A stretch of DNA of 50,558 nt, taken from a virus. Its lineage: Duplodnaviria; Caudoviricetes. The notes below the pieces were generated by a model, which was given only the letters and a program-made list of their open reading frames with translations, searched no databases and was not told the origin of the DNA. Made by a program: the position numbers and the translations under genes. Location of the stretch: positions 1 through 50,558 of IMG/VR virus record IMGVR_UViG_3300037360_000100; one strand, 5' to 3'. Positions 3,459 through 24,417 of the stretch are shown one piece after another (position 1 is the first letter of the stretch; every line of letters starts with the position of its first letter).

Positions 3459-3728
3459 TTAGGCCAACGTAAGGTTTTTTGATTCGATGTAGTACCGCAG
3501 ACCAGAGCTGTGCTCTTCAACTTCAAAGCTGTGCCCATGGTCTCTGCCTATCACGCGTCCTTCTATTCCCGTGTTTGACTTCACACGCATATTTGGCTTC
3601 AACGAGGCCTCGTGTGTAGCCTGCGCCAGGTAACTAGCCCGTTCGGTTGTGTGCCCTCTAACGCCTGAGCCTTCTCCGCCGTCAAGGTTCAGAGCCCGCG
3701 CCGCAATTTGTGCTTCCTGTCCGTTCAT
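3459..3728 (-). CDS. Small protein with NLD|GGEGSGVRGHTT tag and SH3/KOW-like C-terminus (putative capsid cargo)
   Basis: Start corrected to ATG 3728 (AAGGA RBS, ATGA overlap). Shares an 18-residue motif with 4901..5251. Confidence 0.7.
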   Translation of the reverse strand: MNGQEAQIAARALNLDGGEGSGVRGHTTERASYLAQATHEASLKPNMRVKSNTGIEGRVIGRDHGHSFEVEEHSSGLRYYIESKNLTLA

Positions 3729-4054
3729 GGTGTTCCTTCCGGTATATATTCTAGCACGCACCGAAGGCCCTCGCCAAGCTCCAAAAACCCTGGCGGGTCG
3801 TTTGACGCGCCTGAGGTCATGCACCAGATCTCGCCCGTCGGTACGCCCGCGCGGCCGTGGTAGTAGTGCAGCAGGGGCCAGTTAACGACTAGCTTCATGG
3901 GACCGACCAGGACGTCGCCCGTGGTGTTGAGCAATCGGAGGTACCAGCGAGCTTCCCGCGTGCTCCAACGGAAGTCAAGCTGGAAGTCCGTGCCGTCGAG
4001 GTTAACCCGTTGGCTGTAGAAGGCTGTGCCGTCGGAAAGTGTAGGGATAATCAC
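3725..4054 (-). CDS. Small baseplate protein (DUF6983-like plug)
   Basis: YSQRVNLDG..F.L.FRWS.R...W pattern; between Dit-like and hub genes; GAGGAG RBS. Confidence 0.72.
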   Translation of the reverse strand: MIIPTLSDGTAFYSQRVNLDGTDFQLDFRWSTREARWYLRLLNTTGDVLVGPMKLVVNWPLLHYYHGRAGVPTGEIWCMTSGASNDPPGFLELGEGLRCVLEYIPEGTP

Positions 4055-4063
4055 GAGACTCCT

Positions 4064-4894
4064 CTAAACAGCGCCAAGGCCGCCGTAACGTACCAGCGCC
4101 AAGGCCGCCGTAACGTACGCGCGTTGCTGCTCCTCGGTCACGTTCGCTGTTACCTTGGGGGATTTCGTGCCAGCGCTTTTCTTCAGCTGACCTGATGGCT
4201 CCAAGGGCTTGGGCGCTGTGACCGTCAGGCTGTTCACGATACGAACCTCTTTGAGACTCAAACCGAAGGGTGCGCCCTCGCCGTCGTCCGTCTTGCGGGG
4301 TACCTGCAGGCCGTTGTCCGCGAAAACCATGTTGTCGTAGACTTTCAGGTCAGTGCTTACCGTCATTAGAACGCCAGTGTCATAGGCTTTCTCGAGAAGT
4401 GCAAAGGTCTCGTTGACACGGCTGGTCCAGTTTGGCCACGCCCAGACGTTTGCTTGCACGGTCGTTTGCGCCGCGGGGTCCTTTACACGCAAATTGGCCT
4501 GCGTGCCTTGGTCGAACCCAAGGGCGCCGGCCAGGGCGTTGAAACCCGCGCTCACCAGGGCGTGTGCATTCGCGCGCAGAGGACTGCCCGGCACGTCTAG
4601 CTTGGTAAGCTCGCTGTGCCAGCTCGATTCGGCCGGCACGCTAAGGCCGTGCAACCCCAGCTCGGGTGCAGCGCCCGCGCCCAGAAGGTTCTGCGGCAAG
4701 GGTGTGTCTGAAACGTACCCCTCAATTTGAAGGGTCTTGGGCTTACGCCGGACGTTGTCTGAAATGTCCGGGCCGTCCTCGACCGGAAACTCGGTGACTT
4801 CCGTGGCCATACCGTGGGTCTCGGTGTCGTAGACGTCAAGCTGGACCACGTCCGTGGTGCCGTCCTTGTTTTGCCAGAGAATATTGAGGGGCAT
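4064..4894 (-). CDS. Tail tube initiator / Dit-like baseplate protein
   Basis: ETH....VTEFPVEDG..ISDNV...P..L.IEG.VSD motif; downstream of tape measure. Confidence 0.8.
   Translation of the reverse strand: MPLNILWQNKDGTTDVVQLDVYDTETHGMATEVTEFPVEDGPDISDNVRRKPKTLQIEGYVSDTPLPQNLLGAGAAPELGLHGLSVPAESSWHSELTKLDVPGSPLRANAHALVSAGFNALAGALGFDQGTQANLRVKDPAAQTTVQANVWAWPNWTSRVNETFALLEKAYDTGVLMTVSTDLKVYDNMVFADNGLQVPRKTDDGEGAPFGLSLKEVRIVNSLTVTAPKPLEPSGQLKKSAGTKSPKVTANVTEEQQRAYVTAALALVRYGGLGAV
4069..4118. repeat. Exact 25-bp tandem duplication
   Basis: cagcgccaaggccgccgtaacgtac at 4069-4093 and 4094-4118. Confidence 0.95.
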
Positions 4895-4900
4895 TAGACC

Positions 4901-5251
4901 CTACACGAAAACGCTGTGCTTATTGGCCAAGGCGCGCCGTCGGCTCTCATGTTCGCCGTGCGCTTCATTGACCATGCTTGAGCGCCAGCTTTCTGCACGC
5001 GACTGTGCGCTCTTGTCCTTGCCCGCCGCGGCTTTCAGCTCGTCGGCTTTTGCGTTAACTGCAGCGATCTTGGAATCGCGCTCCGATTCTGACTTTGCTT
5101 TACCTTTAGCGTAAGCCGCTAGAGCTTTCTCCCGAGCGGCCGCCAGCCCGCCTGACTTTTCTGTTGTGTGTCCTTTGACACCAGAGCCTTCCCCGCCGTC
5201 TAAGTTCAGGGCGTGAAACGCTAGATCGATTTCTGCTTGATTTTTGAACAT
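4901..5251 (-). CDS. Small Lys/Ala-rich protein with NLD|GGEGSGVKGHTT tag (putative capsid cargo)
   Basis: 116 aa inserted between tape measure and Dit-like genes; motif shared with 3459..3728. Confidence 0.72.
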   Translation of the reverse strand: MFKNQAEIDLAFHALNLDGGEGSGVKGHTTEKSGGLAAAREKALAAYAKGKAKSESERDSKIAAVNAKADELKAAAGKDKSAQSRAESWRSSMVNEAHGEHESRRRALANKHSVFV

Positions 5252-5255
5252 GTTC

Positions 5256-6851
5256 TTACTCTACCGCCGGTTCAAGGGCGTAAATGTCAGCTCTGTTGCC
5301 TGCGCTCTTTTGTCGGGCCCTTTCGACCGCGGACCCCACGGCTTTAGCCTGCGCGTCGGTCGAGCCGGGCATTAGGCTTATGGTCGTAGTTGACTTGTCC
5401 GTAAAGTACTGTGGCTGGCTCAGGTAACTGGGCATGTTGGTGGCTGCTGTTGCTACGCCCATACCCGGTCCGAGCTGCACCGCTTTACCAGCGCCTGAGG
5501 CTTGGTCTGCTTCCGCTTGCGCATTGTCCGCACGTGCCTTGGCGGCCGCGCCGCGAATTCGGTCAAAGTCTGACCCGTTGGCTTCGAACTGCGCCGCCAG
5601 CTCTGCGTCGGCTACGCCATATTCCGCGTCACGTTGGGCCGTAATCTTGGCAACCATCTTGTCGCCTGCGTCTGAGCCAGCAATCCCGGCCATAGCACGG
5701 GCCGGTAGAATGGCCAGCATCTTGGCGGCGTAAGCGATCCACGAGCCCAGGCGTTCAAACTGGCTAACAAGCCACGCAATCGCGGCCGCACCGGCACTTC
5801 CGGCGAACGTAGCCAGACCATCTTTGAAGAGCTGCCAGCTGGCCGTCATGGCCTGGACGTCCTCAACGAACGCCTTGGCCGCGCCCGGGCCAAAGAAGTG
5901 ATCAATCAGAGTACCGGAAAGGCTCTCATCACCCTGAAACAGGCCCATGAGATCTTCAGCCACGAGGGCCAGCAGAATGAACCCGGCAGTCGAAAGGGCC
6001 AGCTTTGCCAGCATGGGCCCGAACATGGTGGCAATGGCACGAAGGCCGCCAACCAGGACAGCAACAAATCCAGCCATGCCGATCCGGCCTAGGTCCAACT
6101 CCGAGCGCATTTCCGTGATTTTGTGGATCACGGCCGTGGCTTTATCGGTCAGCCACGTGAATGCAGGGACCAGTTTCTCTGTAATCATGACAGAGAACGA
6201 CCGCCAGCTCATCTGCAGGCGTACGCTGGCTTCGTGGTACTTGTCCGCGGCTTGGATGTACTCGCCCGTGAAACCGCCTCCAAGCTTTTCGACTTCTTCG
6301 CGCAGCTCGCGGATACCGGCCTCGCCCTTCTTCATGAGGGGCAGCAACTGCGCGCCGCCGCGGCCGAAGATTTTCATAGCCGTGGCGGTCTGTTCGGCTG
6401 GGTCTTTAATGTCCCCAATCGCGCCTGCGACCTCGATGAAAGCTTCCGTGGTCTCTTTTTTAGCTAGTTCTTTCTGGTCCAGACCCAGCTTAGCGTACGC
6501 GGCACCCGCGCCCTGTGCACCGGCGCCTGAGGCGAACATGCTGCGCTGCAGACGCATCAAGCCCATACTGAGGGCATCAACCGGTACCTCGCTGGCCTCG
6601 GCTGCGAATTGGAGACTTTGAAGCTTTTCGGCCGTGGTGCCCGCAATGATTGCGGCGTGATTCAGTTGTAACGCGCCCTCAATGGTCTTCTCGACAAACT
6701 CTTTGACCTCGTACGCGGCGAACGCTTCCCCGACGCTGCGCCCTAGGTGGCGCAGACTTTCGATCATATGCCCGACGCCCGCTTCACCCTTGTTAAGTTC
6801 AGCGTGGTCAATTTCGTACCCGAAGCTGGCGAGAATTTCCCTTAAAGCCAC
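5256..6851 (-). CDS. Tail tape measure protein
   Basis: MALREILASFG start, Ala/Gly-rich helical body, IFGRGG..LLP motif, hydrophobic middle; follows the chaperone. Confidence 0.88.
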   Translation of the reverse strand: MALREILASFGYEIDHAELNKGEAGVGHMIESLRHLGRSVGEAFAAYEVKEFVEKTIEGALQLNHAAIIAGTTAEKLQSLQFAAEASEVPVDALSMGLMRLQRSMFASGAGAQGAGAAYAKLGLDQKELAKKETTEAFIEVAGAIGDIKDPAEQTATAMKIFGRGGAQLLPLMKKGEAGIRELREEVEKLGGGFTGEYIQAADKYHEASVRLQMSWRSFSVMITEKLVPAFTWLTDKATAVIHKITEMRSELDLGRIGMAGFVAVLVGGLRAIATMFGPMLAKLALSTAGFILLALVAEDLMGLFQGDESLSGTLIDHFFGPGAAKAFVEDVQAMTASWQLFKDGLATFAGSAGAAAIAWLVSQFERLGSWIAYAAKMLAILPARAMAGIAGSDAGDKMVAKITAQRDAEYGVADAELAAQFEANGSDFDRIRGAAAKARADNAQAEADQASGAGKAVQLGPGMGVATAATNMPSYLSQPQYFTDKSTTTISLMPGSTDAQAKAVGSAVERARQKSAGNRADIYALEPAVE

Positions 6852-6854
6852 GGG

Positions 6855-7938: not shown

Positions 7939-7940
7939 GA

Positions 7941-9308: not shown

Positions 9309-9316
9309 GGTCCTTA

Positions 9317-9955: not shown

Positions 9956-9968
9956 ATCAGAGCATCTT

Positions 9969-10984: not shown

Positions 10985-10987
10985 GGG

Positions 10988-11353: not shown

Positions 11354-12445
11354 TTAGGTGGTCGCTTGTGACATGTCCACATAAACCATTGCGGGTTCAC
11401 GATAGATTTTCACTGCGCCGACTAGCGAGCGGCAGGGTATGACGTAGCTCATGCCCTCGACCTGCGCGGGGAAAGTCTCGAAATCCATAGGATTTACGGA
11501 CTCCAAAATGTCCCGGTTCCTGCTGTAGCAGATGATCCGGTCCGTGTTCCCGCCTGTGCCTGCGTTGTCGAGGTAGATCCACTGGTCAACCTCGGTAATG
11601 TAGGGGTTATTGTCCAGGAAATACTTCAGTACGGTCACGGGGCTGGCTGAGCTCATCTTGGTCGTTGCGGCCAAGTTGTAGAGGAAAGTGGACAGCAACA
11701 TTGTCTTGGGCGCGAAGATGGTCTTGGTGTTGTAGTTGACCGCTTGCGCAATCAGAGCCAAGTCACCGGCCATTTGCTCTGGGGTCGTTGCAACCGCTCG
11801 CCAAGGGTGCATGGCTGAGTCAATGGTGTTCGTGCCGTCGTACAGCACGGTAGCGCCGGTTCCGACGTTCGGGTGGTTCACGAAACCGCCCAAGTTCCCG
11901 GTCGTCTGGATATCGCCAGTCAGTTTGCCGGTATCGTCGCGCGTCTGTAGGACGCCCGTGCGAGTGACCTCGTCAACGTCGCGCGCGAGTGTGTCGCGAG
12001 CCGCTTCGGCTTTCATCGACGGAATGTCCATTTGCAGCCGCGCCGCCAGACGTAGCTCGTCGATTTCCCAGCCGTAAGACCCTTCAAGCGAGTAGACGTA
12101 GCCTATGCGCTCCTTGGTCTTGATGTTGTCAACGCGCGGGAGGGGCCCTTTGCTCTTGCCGTTCTGCAGACGGCTTTGGCCGGCTGTGTCGCGGGCGTAG
12201 TAGATATACGGGCCGGTAAGCGCGGGAATGTCCGTCGCCTTGGGAATGAAGGTCGCGCACCGGTTTTCCGGATACATTCGCTTCATGATCTTGCTTCGGA
12301 CCGTCTGAATTTGGCGCAGTGTGAACAAGGTGGCAGCACCTAGATCGTCCGCGTCAATTCGTTGCTGCGAGCCCGAAGTACCAAGCATTTCAGCGAGGCG
12401 CATTGCCTCAAAGTTGCCGTCAAGTCTGGAATCTGAAAAGAACAT
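11354..12445 (-). CDS. Major capsid protein (DUF2184-like, HK97 fold)
   Basis: YP......IP, LPRVD, YGW.I.EL..A, K..AAR, GF.NHPN, P.T.LL, TVL.YF..NNP, G.V.IY.. motifs; follows the decoration gene. Confidence 0.9.
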   Translation of the reverse strand: MFFSDSRLDGNFEAMRLAEMLGTSGSQQRIDADDLGAATLFTLRQIQTVRSKIMKRMYPENRCATFIPKATDIPALTGPYIYYARDTAGQSRLQNGKSKGPLPRVDNIKTKERIGYVYSLEGSYGWEIDELRLAARLQMDIPSMKAEAARDTLARDVDEVTRTGVLQTRDDTGKLTGDIQTTGNLGGFVNHPNVGTGATVLYDGTNTIDSAMHPWRAVATTPEQMAGDLALIAQAVNYNTKTIFAPKTMLLSTFLYNLAATTKMSSASPVTVLKYFLDNNPYITEVDQWIYLDNAGTGGNTDRIICYSRNRDILESVNPMDFETFPAQVEGMSYVIPCRSLVGAVKIYREPAMVYVDMSQATT

Positions 12446-12458: not shown

Positions 12459-13040
12459 TTACGCGCCAGTGGGACCAGTTGGACCGGTCGGGCCAGAAAG
12501 GCCTGCGCCTGCGGTGCGGTTAACTTCGAGCTCGGTCAACTGACCGGCACTTGCCCAGGTCGTGCGGAAAAGCAGCCCAGGAACTAGGACGTTCTTACCC
12601 GCGTCGCTTGAGTTGCTGAACGTGCCAAGCCGATCGCCGGGGGCGGTCGTGGTCGTGTAACGGACGTAGACGGGGTCTAGGTCGTTGACGGTGGTTTCGG
12701 GTCGAACCCAGATTCGGCCGTGTGCAAGGATGTTGACGAACTGGCCCACAGGGACGCCGATCGTGGGGTCGTTGGCGACGAATGAGCCAATGACGTTGTC
12801 GTCAAATTCGGACACACCAGCCATGCGCAGAGCTTCGGCCGACGTGGTCGGGAGCTTGGCAATCTTGGGGGTTGCGGCTGCCGAGCAAACGGCGCGGCCG
12901 AACGGAATCACGACGCTGGCAACTTTGTCGCCAATTTCGAGTCCGTCGGTGGAAGTCTGAAAGTCTACGACCTTGCCTTCGAACGCAACGGGCGGTCGAA
13001 AGTCAAAGGTGGACTGAACTGATTCGTTCGCTATGGTCAC
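12459..13040 (-). CDS. Head decoration / cement protein with a short collagen-like GPT tail
   Basis: IPFGRAV, G.IWV, PVYVR motifs; between scaffold and capsid; C-terminal GPTGPTGPTG. Confidence 0.8.
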   Translation of the reverse strand: MTIANESVQSTFDFRPPVAFEGKVVDFQTSTDGLEIGDKVASVVIPFGRAVCSAAATPKIAKLPTTSAEALRMAGVSEFDDNVIGSFVANDPTIGVPVGQFVNILAHGRIWVRPETTVNDLDPVYVRYTTTTAPGDRLGTFSNSSDAGKNVLVPGLLFRTTWASAGQLTELEVNRTAGAGLSGPTGPTGPTGA

Positions 13041-13041
13041 G

Positions 13042-14355
13042 TTATTTTCCCTTGCTCATTGCGAGCGGAGTCTTGTGTTGGTTGGCGCGAGCTTCCTCGG
13101 CATCCTTCTCGTCCTTGCGGGCCGCTTCGTCCAGGCTGTCCAGGTTGACGCCCGCGAAAGCATTCGCGAAGTTCGAGATTGTCTTGGACGCGCTGGCCGT
13201 TTCCAGGCAGGCGTCGAATCGAGCCGAGACGTAGTCGTCAGACTTGCCGTCCAGCTTCGCGCTGGGGTGTACTTTAGCAATCACCAGGGCTTGGATTTCG
13301 CGCTCGGTCTTGCCGTCGAATTTCGCGTCGGCTCCGAGGACCTTTGCGGCCGAAACCACAAGGGCAACGCGGTTCTCGACTGCGGAATCAATGCGCGCGG
13401 GGTCAAGTGCGGCTTTGAGGTCCGTGGTCAACTTGGTGACATCCGCGGTGCTGGAATCAAGCTTGGCTTGAAGCGTATCGCATTCGGTCGTGGCTGTTTT
13501 CAATGCAACAGCGTTCCCATCTAGGCGGGCCTGCATTGCATTGACGTGGACCTCGGAACCGAATTCGAATTCCTGGCCGTCAAATCTAGTTTTCATTCTT
13601 GCTGGTTGCTCCAAAATGGGTTCGGCGGTTTGCACGTCTATTGTTGCATACAAGCCGTCCAGGCGCAAGGCCACATCACCACCGGCGCGCCCCCAGCCCC
13701 TCGGGCCCATGCCCACATGGTTGTAGATAATTCCACGCTGGATGCAATCGAACTTTTCGTCCTGGTAGACGCCTGAACGCATTTCTGTGTGACACTTGTA
13801 CCCACAGGACAGCTCTTGGCCCTCGCCTGAATCCACCTTGGCAAGGCCGTCCGAGCGCTTGATTATCAGTTCACCGGACACGAGTCGCACCCCATCGCCT
13901 TTTGGTGTGCCCGATATGTGACCGATCTCATGTTCCCGAATGTTGGCCGGCGTGACCATGGCCGGGTGACCCCAGACCACAGGCGCGTCCCGCAGGCTAT
14001 CGAGGCTGTCTTGGGCGAAGACCTCTTCGGGCAACCGGAGCTCGCGCCGGGTTGTGCCGTCCGGGTTCGTGTACTTGAACACGCCCGTGCGCGTGAGGTT
14101 TGCGGGCATGCGCGCGAAGCCCTGAGACGTCCGAGAAACCTTGGCGCCGGCGAGCCGACTGAAGTCATAACGCTGCTCGGGCTCGCCGTAGGACTCCGCG
14201 CCGCCGTCGAAACGAAGGCCCTCAGCATTGCCGCCGTCGCCTCGCGCCATGCGTTCAGCGATCGCGACGGCTTGCTCTTGTGGGTGGCCCGCTTTAATTA
14301 GCTCGGCCACATTTTCGGATATGACCTCAGCCGATTTTCCTGTCTTCAGAGGCAT
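13042..14355 (-). CDS. DUF2213 prohead protease / scaffold fusion
   Basis: TRTGVF.Y, ELR..EEVF..DSL, ELSCGY, QR.I.YNHV, GRAG..V.LRLD, then a coiled-coil scaffold with SDDYV.ARFD. Confidence 0.88.
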   Translation of the reverse strand: MPLKTGKSAEVISENVAELIKAGHPQEQAVAIAERMARGDGGNAEGLRFDGGAESYGEPEQRYDFSRLAGAKVSRTSQGFARMPANLTRTGVFKYTNPDGTTRRELRLPEEVFAQDSLDSLRDAPVVWGHPAMVTPANIREHEIGHISGTPKGDGVRLVSGELIIKRSDGLAKVDSGEGQELSCGYKCHTEMRSGVYQDEKFDCIQRGIIYNHVGMGPRGWGRAGGDVALRLDGLYATIDVQTAEPILEQPARMKTRFDGQEFEFGSEVHVNAMQARLDGNAVALKTATTECDTLQAKLDSSTADVTKLTTDLKAALDPARIDSAVENRVALVVSAAKVLGADAKFDGKTEREIQALVIAKVHPSAKLDGKSDDYVSARFDACLETASASKTISNFANAFAGVNLDSLDEAARKDEKDAEEARANQHKTPLAMSKGK

Positions 14356-16985: not shown

Positions 16986-17171
16986 TCATTGCTTGGCCGC
17001 TGTCATTAGGCCCTTGGCGTTGATGCCTGGTAGTGACGCCAAAATCTTGGCGACGATTTCCGCCCAGCGCCAGCCGGTCTCGCTCGCCACGACCTGCATG
17101 ATCGCAGTCGCGTAGGTGATTGCCAGAATGTCGTTAACTGGATTGCTGAGCCAAGTGATAATTGTGTTCAT
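16986..17171 (-). CDS. Small membrane protein, holin-like
   Basis: 61 aa, hydrophobic, basic C-terminus; ATGA-coupled to the peptidase gene. Confidence 0.45.
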   Translation of the reverse strand: MNTIITWLSNPVNDILAITYATAIMQVVASETGWRWAEIVAKILASLPGINAKGLMTAAKQ

Positions 17172-18151
17172 GGCGTCACCGGGCAATCTGCGTCAAAGTC
17201 GAGTTTTGGAAGGTCACTCAATGCAATCCACGCGTAGCCGCACACCGAGCCGATGCACCAGCCCCAGGTGTTACCCCAGCTGTTGTGTATCCAAACGGCG
17301 TCAACGGGCGCGATTTTGTGTGTAAGGTCAAGGATAGCGGCGTTCATGTCGTGCCCGCCTTCGACGTAGCCGGTCACCTGCAACTGGCCTGTAGCGCTGG
17401 GTGTCTGCATGCCGGACCAGAAATCGACGCCAATGTCGGCGGGGCCATTAGCGAGGCACGCTTCAAGCTGCGCAGTCGTGTCTGCGGTCGTGTAAGCGCC
17501 GGCCCAACCCTCGGTGGTCATCCAAGTTGCGACCGAAGCCGTTTGGCTGCCGTTGTCGTTCGCGCCAGTTGCCGGATTGAACGCGGCCGGGCAAGTTTTG
17601 CTTGTGCACGGGATGGTGCAGCCGTTGTCAATGCATGTGCCGCCCTGGTAGGCTAGACGTGCATCGGTCTCGTTGCAATGCGTGCTGCCCTTGAACGGCT
17701 GCGTACTGATTGTCATCACATGGGCGTTGCCTGTGCAGCTTCCCGTTTGGCCTTGGTCAAGCGTTGCACAGTTCGCTAGGTGCGTGGCCGAGCACAATTG
17801 AGTGGCCGCTTCGGCCGTAAACGCTGCGCGCCCCGGGTGCCTGTGGTGTCGCTTGCCTATCTTATGGTGGACGGCCTTCGCAGTTACGTTGGCCTTAGTT
17901 GGCAGCACAATCGAGGCGCAAACCGTGGTCGGTGCAGCGCTGGACCCGCCGGTCGCAACTTGCCCGCCCGTTGCCTTGGCCCCACCAGTCGATGCCCTGC
18001 CTCCGGTTGAGCTGCGGCCACCCGTTGCGGGTGCGCCACCAGTGCAGCTACACTTGCAAGGTTTTGCGGACATTTCTGTGCAGGGCGTGGCCTGCTGACT
18101 ACCGCACGCATGCGCACAAAGTATAGCGAACGCAGCTAGAAAGCGCTTCAC
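17168..18151 (-). CDS. Exported/lipoprotein papain-family (C1-like) cysteine peptidase
   Basis: DQGQTGSCTGNA (Gln/Cys), GGH (His), NSWG..WG (Asn). Start GTG 18151 with signal MKRFLAAFAILCAHAC; TGG-repeat linker. Confidence 0.85.
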   Translation of the reverse strand: MKRFLAAFAILCAHACGSQQATPCTEMSAKPCKCSCTGGAPATGGRSSTGGRASTGGAKATGGQVATGGSSAAPTTVCASIVLPTKANVTAKAVHHKIGKRHHRHPGRAAFTAEAATQLCSATHLANCATLDQGQTGSCTGNAHVMTISTQPFKGSTHCNETDARLAYQGGTCIDNGCTIPCTSKTCPAAFNPATGANDNGSQTASVATWMTTEGWAGAYTTADTTAQLEACLANGPADIGVDFWSGMQTPSATGQLQVTGYVEGGHDMNAAILDLTHKIAPVDAVWIHNSWGNTWGWCIGSVCGYAWIALSDLPKLDFDADCPVTP

Positions 18152-18360
18152 TTTCGCACCGTGGCCTGAACGCCTGCGGCTTGCAGTTGTGCCAGGGCGG
18201 CTACTTGCTCGGCCTGCGAACCGTAGCAAAAGGCTATCGTTTGGCCATTGACGGGAACATCCAAACAGTACGCAAAGCACTGGCCGGACTGGGCGGAAGG
18301 TGTACCAAAAATGCCGCAACCAACTAAGGCTAGGGCGACCAAAGAGCTTAGGAACTTCAT
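18148..18360 (-). CDS. Small lipoprotein
   Basis: MKFLSSLVALALVG|C lipobox; GTGA-coupled to the peptidase. Confidence 0.7.
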   Translation of the reverse strand: MKFLSSLVALALVGCGIFGTPSAQSGQCFAYCLDVPVNGQTIAFCYGSQAEQVAALAQLQAAGVQATVRK

Positions 18361-18392
18361 GCCCTAAGGTTAGCACCGGCTAACCTTAGGGC
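18361..18392. promoter_or_regulatory. Perfect 14-bp inverted repeat containing an extended -10 (TGCTAACCT) and abutting the lipoprotein ATG
   Basis: gccctaaggttagc-accg-gctaaccttagggc. Confidence 0.7.
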
Positions 18393-18403
18393 AAGTCGGG
18401 GGC

Positions 18404-18760: not shown

Positions 18761-19024
18761 TTGGGATTTTCTACTTTCTAGGAGCTCAGCTCCTGACTGT
18801 ATCTATTGCACCCCGTGTGCCAACGAAGCCCCTAGAAGTACGCGCGCTTCTAGGCTATTTTTGGCTCCTTTGGTCCGCCGCTCTGCGAAGCACTTTGCGC
18901 GGTCTGCGCAACTTCGTTCGCGCTCTGTGTAATCCTTTGCGCGTCGCAGAGCAGCCCACCGCGTCGCGGCGCGTTCCACTGCTCAAATGGCAAGGCTGCG
19001 ATTTTCACTGGACAGCCTGTGCCT

Positions 19025-21811
19025 TCAATGTTTTCCTGTTTTCTCATAGGCTTTCAATTCCTTGGACTTAGGACCGAGCTCAAATTTGAGCCCTATTTCG
19101 TTGCCTACAGGCCTAGATTCGAGCCAAGCCTTGCCTAGCTTGGTCGTCTGGCCCTCGCGGTGCGCAAATGGCGTACTGGTCTGCACACGAGACAGATCGT
19201 GCATCGTTTTCGCTTTGGACAGATCTACCTTTAGTCCTTTCTCTTGCATAAAACGTGTCATTTCTTGCTTGTAGCCCTCGAACTTCGAAGGATCACGCAA
19301 ACTGAAACCGAGACGCGGCCACTGGTACTGACCAGTCCAGGCTGCATCCGTGGTTATGCGAGAAACCACACCCGTCTGCTGGTAGGCTCTGAGTTGCTCA
19401 TCAAAAAGCTTAGAACCGAGCCCCTTGCCTTGAATTGACTCATGCAGCATCATTACGTCGTGGTTCACCTCGATTTCCTTGTGTCCGGACTCCCACGATG
19501 TATTGAACTGTCGCTTAAGGTGTAACAGTACGTTTCCGGCCTGGTCCTTGACCTTGGCCTCTAGGTGTATGCTGTCCGACGTTGTCGGGCGTGCAAGGTA
19601 TTCCACTGTGTGCGCTCCTGGTATGTCCAGCTTGTGCACATTAAGCAGGCCCTGTATGTGCTCCGCGTCCAAGTGGTGACCGAAGATGCCTTGTGCGGCT
19701 GCCTGAAACTTGTCGTGGCTGGTGTAGTTGATACCGTTCGCGCTCATGCGCTCGCCTAATCCGGCGCCTTCAGTGAACTGGCCCTTTTCGTCGCGCGGAT
19801 GCTTTGACTCATCGAAATCCCCGCCGTCAAATTCCTGTGTTGGCAAATCGTCGGTCGCGTCGTCGAATTCCTCTAGGACTGGTATTGCAATGCAGCGACA
19901 CTGGAAATCTTGGCCAGGGTGATTTGTCGCGCCAGTGCGCTCACACGTAACCGGCGGATCGTCCCATCGGTGCACGGTGTTGTTCAAGATCTCGTGGTTT
20001 GGGTAGCCTCGGTCCTTGGGGTCGTTTCGCACGCTACCGTCGTTCGACGTGCTCCAGCGGTATCGGTCAACGCCTGCAGCCGTTTGTGCAGCCTGGTTCA
20101 TGCGCCCATTGAGTTTTAGGGTCTGGTCTCTGGCGATTAACTCGGCACGGGCTCGGGTTACCCCGAAAGTGTCCTCGAGGGCCGTGGCCATTTCCTCGAC
20201 CCGTGTCCCGTCGTAGTCCTCCAGGAGGTCGCCAATTCTGTCGCGCATCTCGTCGGATAGGTTCGTTATCAAATCGACGTTCTCGTTGCGCCAGGCTGCG
20301 ATTTCAGAGCCTAGAAATAGGTCTGTGTTCGCGAGCCCGGGCATGTACCTGGGCACGTCGTGCTCCACGTGCGAGCGCACAGTTCCGCCGACCTGGCTCA
20401 GGGGTACCCGATCCGCTGCTTCGCGCAACGGGGTCGTAATGCCCTGTAGGACCTTGCTGGCAAGGGCATCAAGACGGGCACCGTCTGCGCGTTGATAGCT
20501 TCCGCCGGGCTCGAAAATGTCTCGCGTTGCGTTAATTCCTAGCTCGTTGTGCTCGTGTGTAATGCGAAACCTACCAGGATTTTCCTTGTCCTTTTTGAAG
20601 TGCGCTCCTTGGTAGTCAAAGCCCGGGTGCTCGGTTGCGTGCTCGCTGATAGCAGCATACATGCGCTCTTTGGCTTCGCCCTCACGCGTTAGCTGGTCCG
20701 CACTCTTGAACTCATATGTATCGCGCTCTCCAGGCTTGTCCGTGAATCTGTGCGTCACACCCGCTGGCGTGGTCCACTCATACGCGCGAGGCTTAAGCGG
20801 CTTCCCCGAAGCGCTCACGCCGGCTCGGCTGACATCGCCTCCACCCGTCCAGCGACCATTCTCGTCTCGTGGCTCGTCGGGGTCAAAGGCGTCCTTCCGT
20901 GCGCCTTCTTCTACGTGTACCAAGGTCACAAGACCGTGCCTAGGGTGCTGTATATGCTCTATTCTGGTTATTTGCAGCTTCGCACTTCGTGGGACTAGTA
21001 CATCACGCTCAAAGCCGTGACCTCCCGGGAGCGGCATACCTCTGAGATTGCCTTTGAGCAGAACCGGGACGGTACCCTCTTTCTTAACTAGTGTGCCGGC
21101 TGCGTAGTGCGCAGCCGTTGCGGCTGAAGTTGAGAATGAGCTTGTTGACTGTAGTGCAAAGTTTTCTCCCACTTTCAGCTTGAGTGCATCTTCACTTTTT
21201 AGCTGCATTCCACGGAATAGCGTAATTGGCTGAGCGCCCTTTGACTCGCGCTCGACCATTTCTCGCACCACTTTTGAGTGTTCTGTGTCCTTGCCTTCAG
21301 CTTCTGCCTTAACTATTGTGTGGTAGTTGTGCAGGTACTGATAAGCCGCGTCCTTCTCAGCCGGAGTTACTTTAGCGTTAATTCGAGCCAGCGCCTGCTC
21401 TCTAAGCGCCTCGTGCTCCAACGTGCCTTGGTCTACGTCCAGTGCTTCACTCTCTTTTGTGCTTTCATAAATGCTTGACTTAACCTCTGGCTGAAATACA
21501 CCGAAAAGATCATTGCTTCCAGCCCACGGATCTGGTGCATTCAGAAAGTCGCTTGAACTGCTGCCAGTCCAGCGTCCCTGCTCGTCCCTCGGCTCGTCCG
21601 GGTCGAACCCGTCGTGCTTTGCCGCAAGCTCCGCCAGTTTCGGGTACGTCTCAGCAATAGCGCCCATGACGATAGTCTTGAACTCTGCTGCCCATCCACG
21701 CATTGCTCCGAGGTAGAGTCGCTCGGCCTCGTTCGGTGGCTTCGGGCGCTTGGCAAGCTTGCGCCCAAAGAGCTTTTTCCTTACCTCGGCCAGCCTAGAG
21801 TGCGTGATCAA
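19025..21811 (-). CDS. MuF / SPP1 gp7-like minor head protein fused to ADP-ribosyltransferase-like, unknown and GNAT-like cassettes
   Basis: MuF core: RAELIARDQT.K.N, Y.WST..D..VR..H, W.DPP, HPGQDFQCRC.A.P. ART: LFRG, SFSTS, FERDVLVPR. GNAT: QGKGLGSKL...W.RLGF. Confidence 0.88.
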   Translation of the reverse strand: MITHSRLAEVRKKLFGRKLAKRPKPPNEAERLYLGAMRGWAAEFKTIVMGAIAETYPKLAELAAKHDGFDPDEPRDEQGRWTGSSSSDFLNAPDPWAGSNDLFGVFQPEVKSSIYESTKESEALDVDQGTLEHEALREQALARINAKVTPAEKDAAYQYLHNYHTIVKAEAEGKDTEHSKVVREMVERESKGAQPITLFRGMQLKSEDALKLKVGENFALQSTSSFSTSAATAAHYAAGTLVKKEGTVPVLLKGNLRGMPLPGGHGFERDVLVPRSAKLQITRIEHIQHPRHGLVTLVHVEEGARKDAFDPDEPRDENGRWTGGGDVSRAGVSASGKPLKPRAYEWTTPAGVTHRFTDKPGERDTYEFKSADQLTREGEAKERMYAAISEHATEHPGFDYQGAHFKKDKENPGRFRITHEHNELGINATRDIFEPGGSYQRADGARLDALASKVLQGITTPLREAADRVPLSQVGGTVRSHVEHDVPRYMPGLANTDLFLGSEIAAWRNENVDLITNLSDEMRDRIGDLLEDYDGTRVEEMATALEDTFGVTRARAELIARDQTLKLNGRMNQAAQTAAGVDRYRWSTSNDGSVRNDPKDRGYPNHEILNNTVHRWDDPPVTCERTGATNHPGQDFQCRCIAIPVLEEFDDATDDLPTQEFDGGDFDESKHPRDEKGQFTEGAGLGERMSANGINYTSHDKFQAAAQGIFGHHLDAEHIQGLLNVHKLDIPGAHTVEYLARPTTSDSIHLEAKVKDQAGNVLLHLKRQFNTSWESGHKEIEVNHDVMMLHESIQGKGLGSKLFDEQLRAYQQTGVVSRITTDAAWTGQYQWPRLGFSLRDPSKFEGYKQEMTRFMQEKGLKVDLSKAKTMHDLSRVQTSTPFAHREGQTTKLGKAWLESRPVGNEIGLKFELGPKSKELKAYEKTGKH

Positions 21812-21984
21812 AATACACCAGCCGCGCGCACCTTAGTGCGAGCCCAAGAGCAGAAGGCCTCTATTTCCGCGCGTTCGACCTTATAGCGCACTCGCTCTAG
21901 GTCGTTGCAGCAAAACTCGTATTCAAGCGCGTCTACATTTGAAAGCATGCTCTCTTCGAGTGCGTCGATTTGTTCGCGTGTCAC
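21808..21984 (-). CDS. Hypothetical 58-aa protein (not in ORF track)
   Basis: GTG 21984 overlaps the glycosyltransferase stop, and its TGA overlaps the MuF TTG start: MTREQIDALEESML...AAGVF. Confidence 0.6.
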   Translation of the reverse strand: MTREQIDALEESMLSNVDALEYEFCCNDLERVRYKVERAEIEAFCSWARTKVRAAGVF

Positions 21985-22868
21985 TTGTACTTGTCCCTTT
22001 CAATAAACAGACCCGCTGTCGGGCACGGAATCCGGTCCGCAACGGCGGCCCAGTCTGAGCTTTGCAGCATGCGTGCCAGGTGGCGTGCGGGTTCGGCCCG
22101 GCCTCGGTTCAACTGATGCGCTTCATGATAGAAGTAGGCCGCATGCGTAATGTTATCCAAACGCTCGTGGCACATACCCTCGCGCATGGTCGCGTACCAG
22201 ACCTCTTCAGACCAGCCGCCCAGAACTGTGCGCAATGTATACAGGTCTAGGGCACGTGCGTAATTCCCTGCCGCGTAATGATTTTGCGCTGCGTAGAACA
22301 CTACGCGTGGATCGTCCGGATGGTCCACAAGGTCAAGGTCTGAAAGACGTGCGTAGCGGAGCCACTTGGCTTGGCTTTGGTCTCCGAGGTCTGAGAAAAC
22401 CTCCACACAGTCGAGAGACCCCACGGACCCGCCACCCTCGGCCGTCTCGTGCACGCGGTACTTCCACACCCAAGGCGCCCGCGCGCGGAAGATGCGCGTG
22501 CTCTTGAACGCACACGAGCCGTAACTTACGGGCACTTGGTACGCGTCCGCGGTCAGCTTGGGCAAAGGTCCGTCCGTGCCGATTTGCTCGCCCGCGTCCA
22601 AGTGTAGAAGGTACTGGTTCGACGCCTGGCACACGTACGCGCGCGCCGCGTCAAATGCGAAGTTGCGTGCGTCCGCGAAACTGTCTGTCCAGGGATAACG
22701 GACAACCTGCCCGGGTAGACACCCGACGGCCGTGCGCACGAATTCAATCGTGTCATCGGTTGAGCCTGTGTCGCAAATGGTGTAGCTGTCCACAAGGGGC
22801 AGCGCACTCTCAATTGTGCGCTGAATGCGGGCGCTTTCATTCCGGGATAAGACGACTAGGTGCATCAT
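21981..22868 (-). CDS. GT2-family glycosyltransferase with TPR repeats
   Basis: RNE...I.R.IES, DTGSTDDT, FA.ARN, LDA.E, RVHE, then TPR-like FY.AQ.H ... RAEP. Confidence 0.85.
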   Translation of the reverse strand: MMHLVVLSRNESARIQRTIESALPLVDSYTICDTGSTDDTIEFVRTAVGCLPGQVVRYPWTDSFADARNFAFDAARAYVCQASNQYLLHLDAGEQIGTDGPLPKLTADAYQVPVSYGSCAFKSTRIFRARAPWVWKYRVHETAEGGGSVGSLDCVEVFSDLGDQSQAKWLRYARLSDLDLVDHPDDPRVVFYAAQNHYAAGNYARALDLYTLRTVLGGWSEEVWYATMREGMCHERLDNITHAAYFYHEAHQLNRGRAEPARHLARMLQSSDWAAVADRIPCPTAGLFIERDKYK

Positions 22869-22896
22869 TCGAAATCGTCGGGTGCGTCGTTCAACT

Positions 22897-24417
22897 TCAT
22901 GTTCTTTTCTCTGCAGGTTTGGTGCCAAACGCCGGGTTTTCGGAGACCTCGGGCTGTGTAATCCCTCTCACGTCCTTGGGCTCGGGTGTGTTGCCTACGT
23001 CGCCTGCTTCGATCGAGCCGGGCGCGGAGCCCTCGGCTAGGTTGCGCATAACGTCCGCCAAAAGTTTCTCCCTGGTCTTAAGGTCCACCTTCCACGCGTC
23101 GGACCACGTGTCTTGGTCCGTGAAGCGACTGATGGCTACTTCCTCGGGCGTGAGAACCTGCGCGTCAATGTAGGTCTTGTCCGCCGTAGCCATTGTGCTG
23201 ATTTCTTGGGCGCGCTCCAAGGCAGAAGGCGTGTACAGGGGCTCGAACGTGACCACAACATCGGCGCAAAAGGCCTCTAAGCCCTCGACCTTCAAGACGA
23301 TTTTGGCCAGTTCTGCAATCCGCGGCCCGACCACGTTGATCTGATAGCTCTTCGTTTTATCCCAGAACCACCTCAGTGAAGCATCGCCCGTGCTGAAACC
23401 GGCTGGGTCTTGGCCAAAAAGGACCATCATTGGGATCTGCGCAGTCGCTGAAATGCGGAATGCAGCCTGTGAGAGCAGGTCTGGAATCCCCGCGAGCTGC
23501 ATCGGCTGGCGTTCGAAAGTCTCATCCTTATCTATCACAATCGCGCGCAGCATTGACCGATAAAAGTCAATCATTTGCAAGCGGGTCGTAAGCGCCTCGC
23601 CCTGGCCAGCCATGAGCTTGTCCGCAAAACCGTTCACTGTGTAGACGGCCTGAGGGCCCTCCACAATCAGAAGCTCCACGCCCTTCCACAGGGTCTCATA
23701 CATGCGCAGCTGGGGCCAGCACTTGTCCAAGATGCTGTAGTCGTATGACGCGTTCATGTTTTTTTCGCGCTGGGCCGTTCTCGCACCCGGCCAGCCAATC
23801 ATTCTAGATTCGTGAATCTCGTATGCGCCTTGGGACACACCCACCCACGTTTGCGAGAGCACGTACTTAGAGGGCTTGCCCGCCTTGGGCCCACTGTCGT
23901 ACCAGGTCATAGGCCACATAAATCGGCGGTCAACCACCTGAAGCCAGTCCAAGGACTTGGTCCGATCGAAGTCCAAGGGCTCGGACGCGTTTTGGCCATC
24001 ATCGGCCCCGAGCACGGACCAGCCGCCGCCAAACAGGCGACCCCAAACGCACCCAAGTAGCAGGTTCTCGCGCGCGTTTATTTCCTCGAACTTGCGTTCG
24101 ATTAGCTTGTCGGCTTTCTCGTTGCCCGTAGTGACCTTGTAGGGTAGACGGAATGCCTCATCAGCTTGCACGTCTATGATACGCGCAGCCAAGTCCGAGC
24201 CGTGATAGAGGTTGCTCAGGGATATGAGGTCAACAGGGGAATAGCCCCTGAACACACCATAGGAGGTCTTGTCACGCATGGTGCCCATGCCGGTGACGTC
24301 GTTTGACCACCCGACCCCAGGCCGCCCCGGGTTTGTTGAGTAGTTGCGCGTATCAAACCCCTGAAAGCCTGTGAGGCTGTCCAGGTGTGTGCTAACGGTT
24401 CCAAGGTATCCAGTCAT
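22897..24417 (-). CDS. Portal protein (DUF1073-like)
   Basis: W.N..TG.GT.RDK, LY....LA.RIID..A, WGRLFGG, IHESR, IP...LFGQ.P.G.STG, F.PL.TPS..E.A. Start set at ATG 24417 because a promoter lies at 24539-24566. Confidence 0.9.
   Translation of the reverse strand: MTGYLGTVSTHLDSLTGFQGFDTRNYSTNPGRPGVGWSNDVTGMGTMRDKTSYGVFRGYSPVDLISLSNLYHGSDLAARIIDVQADEAFRLPYKVTTGNEKADKLIERKFEEINARENLLLGCVWGRLFGGGWSVLGADDGQNASEPLDFDRTKSLDWLQVVDRRFMWPMTWYDSGPKAGKPSKYVLSQTWVGVSQGAYEIHESRMIGWPGARTAQREKNMNASYDYSILDKCWPQLRMYETLWKGVELLIVEGPQAVYTVNGFADKLMAGQGEALTTRLQMIDFYRSMLRAIVIDKDETFERQPMQLAGIPDLLSQAAFRISATAQIPMMVLFGQDPAGFSTGDASLRWFWDKTKSYQINVVGPRIAELAKIVLKVEGLEAFCADVVVTFEPLYTPSALERAQEISTMATADKTYIDAQVLTPEEVAISRFTDQDTWSDAWKVDLKTREKLLADVMRNLAEGSAPGSIEAGDVGNTPEPKDVRGITQPEVSENPAFGTKPAEKRT

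What the first reader, a model, noticed from the sequence alone, without database searches (positions are those of the whole stretch)
3459..24417. Candidate capsid-cargo system: a genome-wide [RKHN]-x-D|[GAS] cleavage code followed by conserved N-terminal tags on effector modules
Seen: the motif is dense in head proteins. The DUF2213 scaffold tail has RLDG, RFDG, RLDG, KLDS, RIDS, KFDG, KLDG, RFDA and NLDS, and its N-terminus has RGDG and RFDG. The capsid N-terminus has RLDG and RIDA, the portal N-terminus HLDS, and MuF has KHDG, RKDA, RADG, RLDA and the variant EFDG. In five places such a site is immediately followed by a stereotyped peptide and then an unrelated domain: FDxxxPRDExG[RQ][WF]T three times in MuF, and GGEGSGVxGHTTE in two stand-alone small genes. 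Established: T4 gp21 and phiKZ gp175 prohead proteases cleave head and internal proteins after an acidic residue, and T4 Alt and the internal proteins are packaged, processed and injected. Inference: here an Asp-specific DUF2213 protease releases tagged effectors inside the head, and the newly exposed tags act as ejection or targeting signals. That would be a modular plug-in protein delivery system.
Basis: partly seen in the sequence, partly recalled or inferred. Interest (0 to 1): 0.9.

Follow-up and report, generated by a model that had tools for sequence, protein, structure and literature searches.

The report
Asp-cut cargo tags in phage head
An uncultured 50-kb phage probably uses a head-maturation protease that cuts after aspartate both to trim its own head proteins and to free small tagged enzyme modules loaded into the capsid, but no cut has been measured.

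Summary
The sequence facts hold. All listed motif copies and exactly five tags are present. Enrichment of [RKHN][LFIVM]D[GAS] is not genome-wide. The DUF2213 protease-scaffold has 11 copies against 0.38 expected. Other head proteins have 2.4 per 1000 aa against 0.56 in the other 44 ORFs.

The motif is conserved across the family. The median is 5 copies in 120 homologues, LRLDG is invariant at the protease/scaffold junction, and 64 of 71 neighbouring capsids carry it in their N-arm. The domain folds like T4 gp21. In Pbunavirus E217 the capsid model starts just after AMD64-S65. Cutting after Asp is therefore well supported but unmeasured.

The tags are real, widespread joint peptides and are not specific to DUF2213 phages. 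The residue before tag B follows the resident protease: K/R in 31 of 38 tags in S78 records, and Asp in 8 of 12 tags in DUF2213 phages. Four related MuF genes carry zero to three cassettes at the same xD[GA] joints.

The proposed role of the tags as ejection signals is untested. The scan has noted similar site-plus-tag systems on other DNA. I class this as a new variant of the T4 capsid-targeting/gp21 theme.

The parts
13042..14355 (-). DUF2213 prohead protease fused to a helical scaffold tail (437 aa). It comprises an N-terminal 38-aa helical module, two linker sites, the protease domain at about residues 60-230, the junction LRLDG, and a tail with 8 further sites.
   Evidence: PF09979 3.3e-28. 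phrog_530 'head maturation protease' 6.8e-79. AF2 model with mean pLDDT 77. The only significant PDB fold match is T4 gp21 5jbl, E 5e-4, prob 1.0. H130, S183 and L230-R231-D233 are invariant in 32 homologues.
13654..13665 (-). RLDG231, the junction site between protease domain and scaffold tail.
   Evidence: L230, R231 and D233 are invariant in alignment A2. The site lies at the start of the pLDDT<50 segment 230-250.
13045..13608 (-). Scaffold tail (residues 250-437) with RFDG257, RLDG277, KLDS298, RIDS321, KFDG345, KLDG367, RFDA379 and NLDS404, spaced 12-26 residues apart.
   Evidence: The same positions carry the motif in homologues down to 37% identity.
14203..14244 (-). RGDG38 and RFDG48, in the linker between the N-terminal helical module and the protease domain.
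   Evidence: The N-terminal extension is present only in the 7 closest of 32 homologues. Residues 1-38 match phrog_2423 at 8.9e-15.
11354..12445 (-). Major capsid protein (PF09950) with RLDG7 (12416-12427) and RIDA29 (12350-12361) in the N-arm.
   Evidence: 64 of 71 capsid homologues next to DUF2213 proteases have the motif in their first 60 residues, and R[LFI]DA is conserved just before the conserved core. The Pam3 capsid chain 8hdt begins about 5 residues before the position aligned to residue 30.
12459..13040 (-). Cement/decoration protein (E217 gp24/Pam3 gp6 type). It has no motif copy.
   Evidence: PF22758 5.7e-20. 0 motifs.
22897..24642 (-). Portal (PF06381). HLDS86 (24376-24387) lies upstream of the conserved core. 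The true start may be Met76.
   Evidence: The four closest full-length relatives have RFDN, RLDS, RLDS and RFDG at the same place. 20 of 53 portal homologues have a motif copy (the script's pattern also accepts Gln in first place) upstream of the core.
19025..21811 (-). MuF minor head protein (928 aa) built as: N-helix, cassette 1 (ART-like), cassette 2 (unknown), MuF core, cassette 3 (GNAT-like).
   Evidence: PF04233 at residues 534-642. Weak ART (E 0.0055) and GNAT (E 0.0067) hits, both below their cut-offs. Comparison with L006, G101 and L120.
21566..21619 (-). Joint 1: KHD-G followed by FDPDEPRDEQGRWT (residues 65-82).
   Evidence: The cassette-less relatives have RED-A (G101) and RSD-A (L120) at this point.
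20846..20899 (-). Joint 2: RKD-A followed by FDPDEPRDENGRWT (residues 305-322).
   Evidence: In L006 the same cassette (78% identity) follows RKD-G directly after the N-helix.
20465..20491 (-). RADG441 and RLDA446: the end of the cassette array, just before the MuF core.
   Evidence: L006 has RADG, HLDA plus a further tagged cassette here, closed by RTDA.
19772..19834 (-). Joint 3: EFD-G-GD followed by FDESKHPRDEKGQFT (residues 660-680), before the GNAT-like C-terminal cassette.
   Evidence: The joint is identical in L006. G101 has ELD-G-G-FDETLHPR with an in-frame TAG. L120's MuF ends before this point.
4901..5251 (-). Small cargo gene (116 aa) inserted after the tape-measure gene. Leader plus NLD-G plus GEGSGVKGHTTE lie at 5159-5251.
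   Evidence: The gene is absent at this position in sister genome G101.
3459..3728 (-). Small cargo gene (89 aa from Met at 3728) inserted before the baseplate hub gene. Leader plus NLD-G plus GEGSGVRGHTTE lie at 3642-3728.
   Evidence: The gene is absent at this position in G101. In relative L006 a gene with the same leader lies between the portal and glycosyltransferase genes.

Best explanation
The window is the whole genome of an uncultured myophage with a Mu-like tail module.

Protease and its sites. The head is built with a DUF2213 enzyme, a serine protease of the T4 gp21 fold fused to its own helical scaffold. This protease most likely cuts after Asp in [RK]-hydrophobic-D followed by G/S/A. 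Predicted cuts:
- it detaches itself from the scaffold at LRLD-G;
- it chops the scaffold tail into pieces of about 20 residues;
- it trims the capsid N-arm, most likely after D31;
- it perhaps trims the portal.

Cargo. The same site, with a looser P2 residue, stands at each joint of three extra modules carried by the MuF head protein. It also ends an 18-residue leader on two small stand-alone proteins. These modules are therefore loaded into the prohead, either as parts of MuF or through their leader, and cut free there.

Tags. Each released module starts with a conserved peptide: FDxxxPRDExGxWT or GEGSGVxGHTT. That peptide is a pan-phage joint element that sits immediately after whichever cut site the resident head protease uses.

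Shown: the motifs, their conservation, the fold, cassette gain and loss, and covariation with protease family.

Inferred: cleavage, packaging and injection.

The function of the tags is open. I put a packaging or retention contact inside the head at about 40%, a post-release or ejection role at about 20%, and a mere spacer at about 15%.
For: 1. Motif excess. The protease-scaffold has 11 copies against 0.38 expected (0 of 500 shuffles). In 120 homologues the median is 5 against 0.40 expected. The Glu version is absent in 95 of 120.
2. Position. LRLDG is invariant at the protease/scaffold junction, in a disordered stretch of the model.
3. Fold. T4 gp21 is the only significant PDB match. His130 and Ser183 are invariant.
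4. Substrates. 64 of 71 adjacent capsids carry the motif in the N-arm, with R[LFI]DA conserved at the edge of the core.
5. Independent structures. The E217 paper says residues 1-65 of the capsid protein are not visible and the model is 66-382 (passage). E217 gp25 reads AMD64-S65-N66, and AMDS recurs in its portal and its DUF2213 'scaffold'. The Pa193 paper reports a retained 41-residue scaffold piece 'possibly cleaved' and a portal lacking its first 93 residues in both map and LC-MS (passages).
6. Site-tag coupling. All five tags in the window follow xD[GA]. Before tag B, S78 records have K/R or [KR][AGS] in 31 of 38 tags and Asp in 2 of 38. DUF2213 records have K/R in 0 of 7 and Asp in 3 of 7 (Fisher p 7.6e-5 and 0.02). 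Adding the window (3 tags), L121 and L165 gives Asp in 8 of 12 against 2 of 38, p 3.5e-5.
7. Tag A behaves the same way. It follows NLD in this clade (19 of 19 rows). It follows K in an XkdF-type protease polyprotein. In 12 loci found by a pattern blind to the upstream residues it follows K or N in most and NLD in two.
8. Modularity. At the same MuF position L120 and G101 have no cassette, only RSD-A and RED-A. L006 has two cassettes and the window has two, sharing one at 78% identity.
9. Cargo type. ORFs with tag B carry ADP-ribosyltransferase, portal, zeta-toxin, MuF, Acb1, GNAT and ParB domains (86 ORFs scanned of 98 selected).
Against: - No cleavage, packaging or injection has been measured for this phage or for any DUF2213 protease that I could find.
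- MuF and portal are not individually enriched for the motif.
- P2 at the MuF joints is H, K, A or F rather than the family's L/F/I.
- Four scaffold sites (277, 298, 321, 379) lie inside predicted long helices. The regular spacing could be structural.
- In many portal relatives the motif lies only 3-10 residues from the start. A cut there would remove almost nothing.
- Two DUF2213-positive records break the rule: G067 has R-x-L-[GA] before three tags, and G039 has N.
- Six of 119 tag-B copies sit directly after Met-Ala-Gly, so the tag does not need a cut.
- The records compared are mostly fragments and are not phylogenetically independent. 'None found' (65 tags) includes records that were never searched for every protease family.
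Confidence: 0.6

Rival explanations
1. The [RK]-hydrophobic-D-[GSA] motif is a structural or assembly repeat, such as helix caps or scaffold-to-capsid contact points. It is not a cut site, and the tags are uncut inter-domain linkers of a polyvalent head protein.
For: The spacing is regular at 12-26 residues. Several copies lie inside predicted helices. In portals the motif is almost N-terminal. In Pa193 a scaffold helix-turn-helix stays bound under the vertices (passage).
Against: The motif also sits in disordered linkers and at the invariant protease/scaffold junction. It is at the capsid N-arm edge where E217's visible model begins. The residue before the tags changes with the protease family, which a purely structural repeat does not predict.
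Confidence: 0.12
2. The cuts are real, but the tags have no function of their own. They are conserved only because cassettes spread by recombination at a shared linker sequence.
For: Cassettes move between the same joints in related MuF genes. Tags are followed by Gly-rich spacers.
Against: The two tag-A copies in one genome differ at 10 of 54 nucleotides with 8 synonymous codon changes. Twelve tag-A residues are invariant in 19 proteins whose remaining sequence falls into several mutually unrelated groups. Eleven tag-B positions are at least 90% conserved in 86 ORFs with 6% mean column identity. Selection therefore acts on the peptide, not on the DNA.
Confidence: 0.15
3. The two small tagged proteins are tail or tape-measure accessory proteins rather than capsid cargo. 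Their leader serves tail assembly.
For: Both genes lie inside the tail module, one directly after the tape-measure gene.
Against: Sister genome G101 has the same tail gene order without either gene. In relative L006 a gene with the same leader lies between the portal and glycosyltransferase genes in the head module. The leader ends in the head-protease motif.
Confidence: 0.08
4. Processing at the joints is done by another enzyme, either the papain-like peptidase at 17168-18376 or a host protease.
For: A papain-like peptidase gene (phrog_16701, 8.7e-18) lies between the MuF and protease genes. Iyer et al. 2017 propose peptidase domains that process polyvalent proteins (passages).
Against: That ORF was not examined further here. 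The joint sites match the motif that is enriched in the DUF2213 protein's own tail and in its capsid substrate. The residue before the tag follows the head-protease family across phages.
Confidence: 0.05

Closest known systems
Phage T4 capsid targeting sequence (CTS) on internal proteins IPI-III and Alt, removed by prohead protease gp21
   Same: A short N-terminal leader on unrelated proteins directs them into the prohead. It ends in the protease's motif, and the proteins are injected with the DNA. The CTS is described in passages of PMC9024508. The gp21 fold matches this protease.
   Different: P1 here is Asp, not Glu (the T4 L/I-x-E rule is recalled, not taken from a call). The protease family is DUF2213, fused to its scaffold. 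A conserved peptide follows the site and stays on the cargo. Cargo also comes as cassettes inside MuF.
phiKZ gp175 / SPN3US gp245 prohead proteases that cut many head and ejection proteins
   Same: One head protease processes many packaged proteins at a short acidic-P1 motif. I saw only search listings and abstract starts of the SPN3US papers.
   Different: Those are giant phages with Glu at P1 (recalled). No shared post-site tag has been described for them in what I saw.
Phage P1 DarB N-terminal capsid targeting signal
   Same: The N-terminal 30 residues are sufficient to carry a reporter into the capsid (passages of PMC9024508).
   Different: I saw no linked cleavage motif or conserved post-site tag for it. 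P1 has a different head type.
MuF- and portal-fused effectors: MuF polymorphic toxins (Jamet 2017) and polyvalent proteins (Iyer 2017)
   Same: Enzyme domains are fused to MuF or portal and proposed to be delivered with the DNA (passages of PMC5512222). The tag-B ORFs carry the same domain types.
   Different: Those papers do not mention these joint peptides or head-protease sites. 'Motif' and 'cleav' occur 0 times in PMC5576092, and 'linker' occurs 0 times in PMC5512222. Here two cassettes are inserted inside MuF, not only at its C-terminus.
Pbunavirus heads (E217, Pa193, PB1): DUF2213 'scaffolding protein', cement and capsid
   Same: The A2 profile matches Pa193 gp24 (9b40_G) at 1.2e-10. The cement family is the same. 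The capsid N-terminus is missing after an xMD-S site.
   Different: Their scaffold tail is acidic and lacks the repeated motif. The authors call gp24 a scaffold. The word 'protease' occurs 0 times in both papers.
HK97 gp4 protease C-terminal capsid-targeting tail, and encapsulin cargo-loading peptides
   Same: Short peptides load proteins into HK97-fold shells. This is recalled. Duda et al. 2013 was seen only as a reference entry.
   Different: Those signals are C-terminal and are not coupled to a cut site followed by a tag.

Membership tests
DUF2213 (PF09979) | Pfam model match above the gathering score | tested here: met
   99.2 bits against a cut-off of 22, residues 74-231.
Prohead serine protease of the T4 gp21 / HK97 gp4 / assemblin fold | Fold similarity to a solved prohead protease | tested here: met
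   Foldseek: 5jbl chains A-C at E 5e-4 to 8e-4, prob 1.0, TM (target) 0.54. The next hit has E 0.036.
Prohead serine protease of the T4 gp21 / HK97 gp4 / assemblin fold | Conserved His and Ser that could form the catalytic pair | tested here: inconclusive
   H130, H146, H213, S117 and S183 are invariant in 32 homologues. I did not map them onto the gp21 catalytic residues.
Prohead serine protease of the T4 gp21 / HK97 gp4 / assemblin fold | Proteolytic activity on capsid and scaffold | not testable with these tools
   Only indirect evidence: the E217 capsid model starts at residue 66, after AMD64-S65.
T4-type capsid targeting sequence system | The same N-terminal leader on otherwise unrelated proteins | tested here: met
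   19 small proteins share residues 1-30. Their C-termini fall into several mutually unrelated groups; the first five rows are 59-80% identical overall, and two other groups of rows share a C-terminus.
T4-type capsid targeting sequence system | The leader ends in the motif found at the protease's sites in capsid and scaffold | tested here: met
   NLD-G in 18 of 19 rows and HID-G in one. The motif is in the scaffold and in capsid N-arms.
T4-type capsid targeting sequence system | Leader-dependent packaging and removal in the prohead | not testable with these tools
   None. The complex prediction gave no verdict (reported only under Tried and rejected).
MuF (PF04233) minor head protein | Pfam model match above the gathering score | tested here: met
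   51.6 bits against a cut-off of 29.6, residues 534-642.
MuF polymorphic toxin / polyvalent protein | Recognisable effector or toxin domains fused to MuF | tested here: inconclusive
   ADPrib_exo_Tox E 0.0055 (16.5 bits, cut-off 23.4). GNAT E 0.0067 (17.2 bits, cut-off 27). Cassette 2 has no hit.
MuF polymorphic toxin / polyvalent protein | Cognate immunity gene next to the toxin | not tested
   Not examined.

The most novel reading that the evidence does not exclude
The two peptides FDxxxPRDExGxWT and GGEGSGVKGHTT are a pan-phage address label. It is placed right after the cut site of whatever head protease a phage uses, and it is read by something common to tailed-phage heads: packaged DNA, the portal channel, or a host factor met after ejection. 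If so, the injected protein set of any phage could be read from sequence, and any protein could be loaded by adding leader, site and tag.
Probability: 0.2. Interest if true: 0.85.

Novelty: new variant of a known kind. Interest (0 to 1): 0.65.

Why it matters
Three things follow if the cuts are confirmed.

1. A very common but unnamed phage family (DUF2213; 1014 of 50,697 phage records matched by tblastn) would gain a function and a cutting rule, with Asp at P1. That rule would help interpret cryo-EM maps of Pbunavirus-like therapeutic phages, in which the protein is currently called a scaffold.

2. The pairing of a cut site matched to the resident protease with a conserved tag gives a sequence-only way to list the proteins a phage packs and injects. 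These include anti-defence enzymes such as ADP-ribosyltransferases, Acb1 and GNATs.

3. Leader, site and tag form a small portable unit that could be tried for loading foreign proteins into capsids.

My searches found no description of the tags or of the Asp rule. The scan itself has noted similar systems in other genomes.

Tried and rejected
- Phage collection: tblastn of the small protein against 50,697 phage records found nothing at E<=1.
- PF03420 (T4 gp21 family) hit none of 34 tag-bearing records and none of the controls, so that search says nothing.
- Co-occurrence of tags with DUF2213 is rejected: PF09979 was found in 7 of 100 records.
- Complex prediction of the protease-scaffold with the first 45 residues of the small protein gave no verdict (score 0.00 in two runs, controls not run). 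It counts neither for nor against binding.
- Pfam found nothing for either small protein, for MuF cassette 2, for the extra L006 cassette, or for the protease's 38-residue N-terminal module.
- A double-glycine bacteriocin-type leader was considered for the small proteins. I rejected it by eye because the hydrophobic positions do not fit. That consensus is recalled, not tested.
- An N-degron reading (a new N-terminal Phe) was considered and dropped, because in this phage the predicted new N-termini are Gly or Ala.
- Literature: searches for DUF2213 (7 papers, none about cleavage judging by titles and abstract starts), for prohead protease with aspartate, and for CTS/polyvalent/MuF gave no description of the tags or of an Asp rule. 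The LC-MS tables of the Pa193 paper could bear on the cut sites.
- I did not use the search of protein representatives, the protein-atlas search, the third homologous-protein search, the genome-contig scan, or the sequencing-run tools.

Full report
WHAT THE WINDOW IS. The window is a whole virus record of 50,558 bases (header). Most genes lie on the minus strand. From right to left the annotated genes are:
- terminase 26027-27535 (so labelled from its translation; no family search was run on it);
- portal 22897-24642 (PF06381);
- a family-2 glycosyltransferase;
- MuF 19025-21811 (PF04233 at residues 534-642);
- a papain-like peptidase;
- two unknown ORFs;
- the DUF2213 protein 13042-14355;
- a cement protein of the E217 gp24/Pam3 gp6 type;
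- the major capsid protein 11354-12445 (PF09950);
- a Mu-like contractile tail module.

THE OBSERVATION. A six-frame scan finds exactly five tags: three in MuF and two in small genes. The strict form [RKHN][LFIVM]D[GAS] gives these counts against within-protein shuffles:
- DUF2213 protein: 11 observed, 0.38 expected, reached in 0 of 500 shuffles;
- capsid: 2 observed, 0.23 expected, both in the first 32 residues;
- MuF: 2 observed, 0.67 expected, not significant;
- portal: 1 observed, 0.40 expected, not significant.

Pooled, the four other head proteins carry 5 copies in 2065 residues. The 44 remaining ORFs carry 7 in 12,437 (Fisher p=0.019). The motif is therefore a head-module feature dominated by one protein. 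It is not a genome-wide code.

IS THE MOTIF FUNCTIONAL? A search of the large protein collection returned 470 relatives of the DUF2213 protein, and I examined the 120 listed.
- They hold a median of 5 strict copies against 0.40 expected. The Glu version is absent from 95 of the 120.
- In an alignment of 32 of them (35-88% identity to the window's protein), L230, R231 and D233 are invariant, right at the end of the protease domain. Later copies recur in the same columns. H130 and S183 are also invariant.
- The AlphaFold model (mean pLDDT 77) has a confident beta-rich domain at residues 60-230, a disordered stretch at 230-250 that begins at this junction, and then helices.
- The only significant PDB fold match is the T4 prohead protease gp21 (E 5e-4, probability 1.0).

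I fetched 80 loci around DUF2213 genes.
- 71 had a capsid homologue. 64 of those carry the motif within the first 60 residues. A conserved R[LFI]DA sits just before the conserved core, in the same place as RIDA29 in the window.
- The capsid protein of Pam3 (8hdt) starts about five residues before that point, so the first 30 residues here are an extension.
- Portals are less clear. 20 of 53 have a motif copy upstream of the core (the script's pattern here also accepts Gln in first place). In many the motif lies only a few residues from the start.

INDEPENDENT STRUCTURAL HINTS. The family profile matches PDB 9b40 chain G, Pa193 gp24 'scaffolding protein' (1.2e-10).
- Passages of that paper say that residues 286-326 of gp24 remain under the five-fold vertices and are 'possibly cleaved'. 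They also say the first 93 residues of the portal are absent from both map and LC-MS. The word 'protease' does not occur.
- Passages of the E217 paper say the first 65 residues of the capsid protein gp25 are not visible and the model covers 66-382.
- In the E217 record gp25 reads AMD64-S65-N66. AMDS recurs in the portal (70-73) and in the DUF2213 protein (410-413). PB1 shows the same pattern.

This fits a cut after Asp in distant family members. It is my inference, not the authors' statement.

THE TAGS. Tag A sits in a conserved 30-residue N-terminal block, MNxxDAxIAxRALNLD-GGEGSGVKGHTTE.
- 19 small proteins share it. After it their sequences fall into several mutually unrelated groups; the first five rows are 59-80% identical overall and two other groups of rows share a C-terminus. 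Twelve residues are invariant.
- The two copies in the window differ at 10 of 54 nucleotides, with 8 synonymous codon changes.
- A DNA pattern blind to the upstream residues found 6 viral and 6 metagenome loci. One metagenome locus (L205) repeats the ORF of three of the viral loci. Two of the 12 have NLD before the tag. The rest have a short hydrophobic leader ending in K or N.
- One of these loci is a Peptidase_S78_2 protease-scaffold polyprotein with one cassette carrying tag A and a second carrying the variant GGPGSGKTGH, both after VQK.

Tag B (FDPxxPRDExG[KRQ]WT followed by a Gly-rich spacer) matched 113 stretches of viral contigs, giving 136 occurrences and 119 distinct contexts.
- Of 98 selected ORFs I scanned 86, dropping the 12 longest to fit the size limit.
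- They carry ADP-ribosyltransferase (8), HK97-type portal (5) plus other portal families, zeta toxin (5), MuF (4), Acb1, GNAT, ParB and 2H domains.

The tags are thus joint peptides of head-associated multi-enzyme proteins. The general theme is known from Iyer et al. 2017 and Jamet et al. 2017. In those texts 'linker' and 'motif' or 'cleav' do not occur.

The tags are not tied to DUF2213. PF09979 was found in 6 of 50 and 1 of 50 tag-bearing records. Only 8 of 119 tag-B contexts have Asp at -1 or -2. However, the residue before the tag follows the resident protease.
- Peptidase_S78 was found over its cut-off in 15 of 34 and 20 of 50 records searched. In the S78-positive records that hold the 38 distinct tags (29 records), K/R, or [KR] followed by A/G/S, precedes 31 of 38 tags and Asp precedes 2 of 38.
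- In the 5 records with PF09979 over its cut-off, the figures are 0 of 7 for K/R and 3 of 7 for Asp (p=7.6e-5 and p=0.02).
- Adding the window's three tags and two tagged portals from the DUF2213 loci (KRLD-FDP and ERED-YNP) gives Asp in 8 of 12 against 2 of 38 (p=3.5e-5).
- Exceptions: G067 has R-x-L-[GA] before three tags, and G039 has N.

Caveats: most records are fragments, they are not independent lineages, and the 65 'none found' tags include records not searched for every family. That HK97-type proteases cut after Lys is recalled, not taken from a call.

MODULARITY. Relatives of this phage settle the plug-in question. Between the conserved N-helix and the MuF core:
- L120 has only RSD-A;
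- G101 has only RED-A;
- L006 has RKD-G + tag + cassette 2, then HLD-A + tag + a different cassette, closed by RTD-A;
- the window has KHD-G + tag + an ART-like cassette, then RKD-A + tag + cassette 2 (78% identical to L006's), closed by RAD-G and RLD-A.

At the C-terminus:
- L120 stops before the joint;
- G101 has ELD-G-G-FDETLHPR interrupted by a TAG;
- L006 and the window have EFD-G-GD + tag + a GNAT-like domain.

G101 is a complete sister genome with 69% protease identity. It has the same tail gene order but neither small tagged gene, and no intact tag. In L006 a gene with the same leader lies between the portal and glycosyltransferase genes. So these genes move, and their place in the tail module here is incidental.

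MECHANISM. The best reading is a head protease with Asp at P1.
- It frees itself from its scaffold.
- It dices the scaffold.
- It trims the capsid N-arm.
- It separates cargo modules that entered the prohead as parts of MuF or through an 18-residue leader.

Shown: the motif statistics, conservation, fold, cassette turnover and covariation. Inferred: cleavage, packaging and injection. The tags' own role is unknown. Six copies directly after Met-Ala-Gly show that no leader or cut is needed for them. Strong peptide-level conservation argues against a mere spacer.

COMPARISON AND NOVELTY. The system works like T4's CTS plus gp21, and like P1 DarB's N-terminal signal (passages). It differs in four ways:
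- Asp rather than Glu at P1;
- a DUF2213 protease-scaffold fusion;
- a conserved post-site tag shared across phages with different proteases;
- cassettes inserted inside MuF.

I found no description of these points in my searches. Earlier notes of this scan describe the same site-plus-tag theme in other genomes. They include an x-x-D plus EPR..G.W case and the protease-dependent residue before the tag. I reached the covariation result from my own data before reading them. My verdict is a new variant of a known kind, well supported by comparison and untested at the bench.

Noticed in passing
window 14242-14355 (-), residues 1-38 of the DUF2213 protein: A two-helix N-terminal module matches phrog_2423, a 52-aa stand-alone family of unknown function (8.9e-15). 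It is fused to the protease only in the 7 closest of 32 homologues, and two xDG sites separate it from the protease domain. It may be another released piece.
   Followed up: partly
L201 (G101:C1:44986-48174), local about 2380-2425: In the sister phage the MuF C-terminal joint reads ELDGGFDETLHPR, then an in-frame TAG, then a Gly-rich stretch and the GNAT-like domain. This could be a split gene, a read-through or an assembly error.
   Followed up: no
L114 and L115 (record G067): A phage with a DUF2213-like hit (33.8 bits) has R-x-L-[GA], not Asp, before all three of its tag-B copies. Its protease may have a different specificity.
   Followed up: no
L001:5870-8194 (-): A 775-aa polyprotein with an XkdF-type protease (PF14550, 2.5e-22). 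It is followed by two cassettes that each begin ...AVQK-GG[EP]GSG..., and then by a helical tail. Cargo here is inserted inside the protease-scaffold gene itself.
   Followed up: partly
L202 (E217) and L199 (PB1): AMDS occurs in frame in the capsid, the portal and the DUF2213 'scaffold' of Pbunaviruses. The published E217 capsid model starts at residue 66, just after AMD64-S65.
   Followed up: partly
window 17168-18376 (-): A 402-aa ORF matches phrog_16701 'peptidase' (8.7e-18). It has a Cys-rich, Gly/Thr-repeat N-terminal part and lies between the MuF and head-protease genes. L120 has a 29%-identical homologue at the same place.
   Followed up: no
window 27514-29901 (-): Three ORFs are made almost wholly of short repeats: TPRSV/TPGSV units, and N-A-[QKR]-V-[CY]-[GD] units in two paralogous proteins that share an identical 40-residue start.
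   Followed up: no
window 3725-4054 (-): The 109-aa ORF conserved in G101 (81% identity) has NLDG at residue 18. Its end overlaps the long upstream extension of ORF 3459-3824, which supports Met at 3728 as the true start of the small gene.
   Followed up: partly
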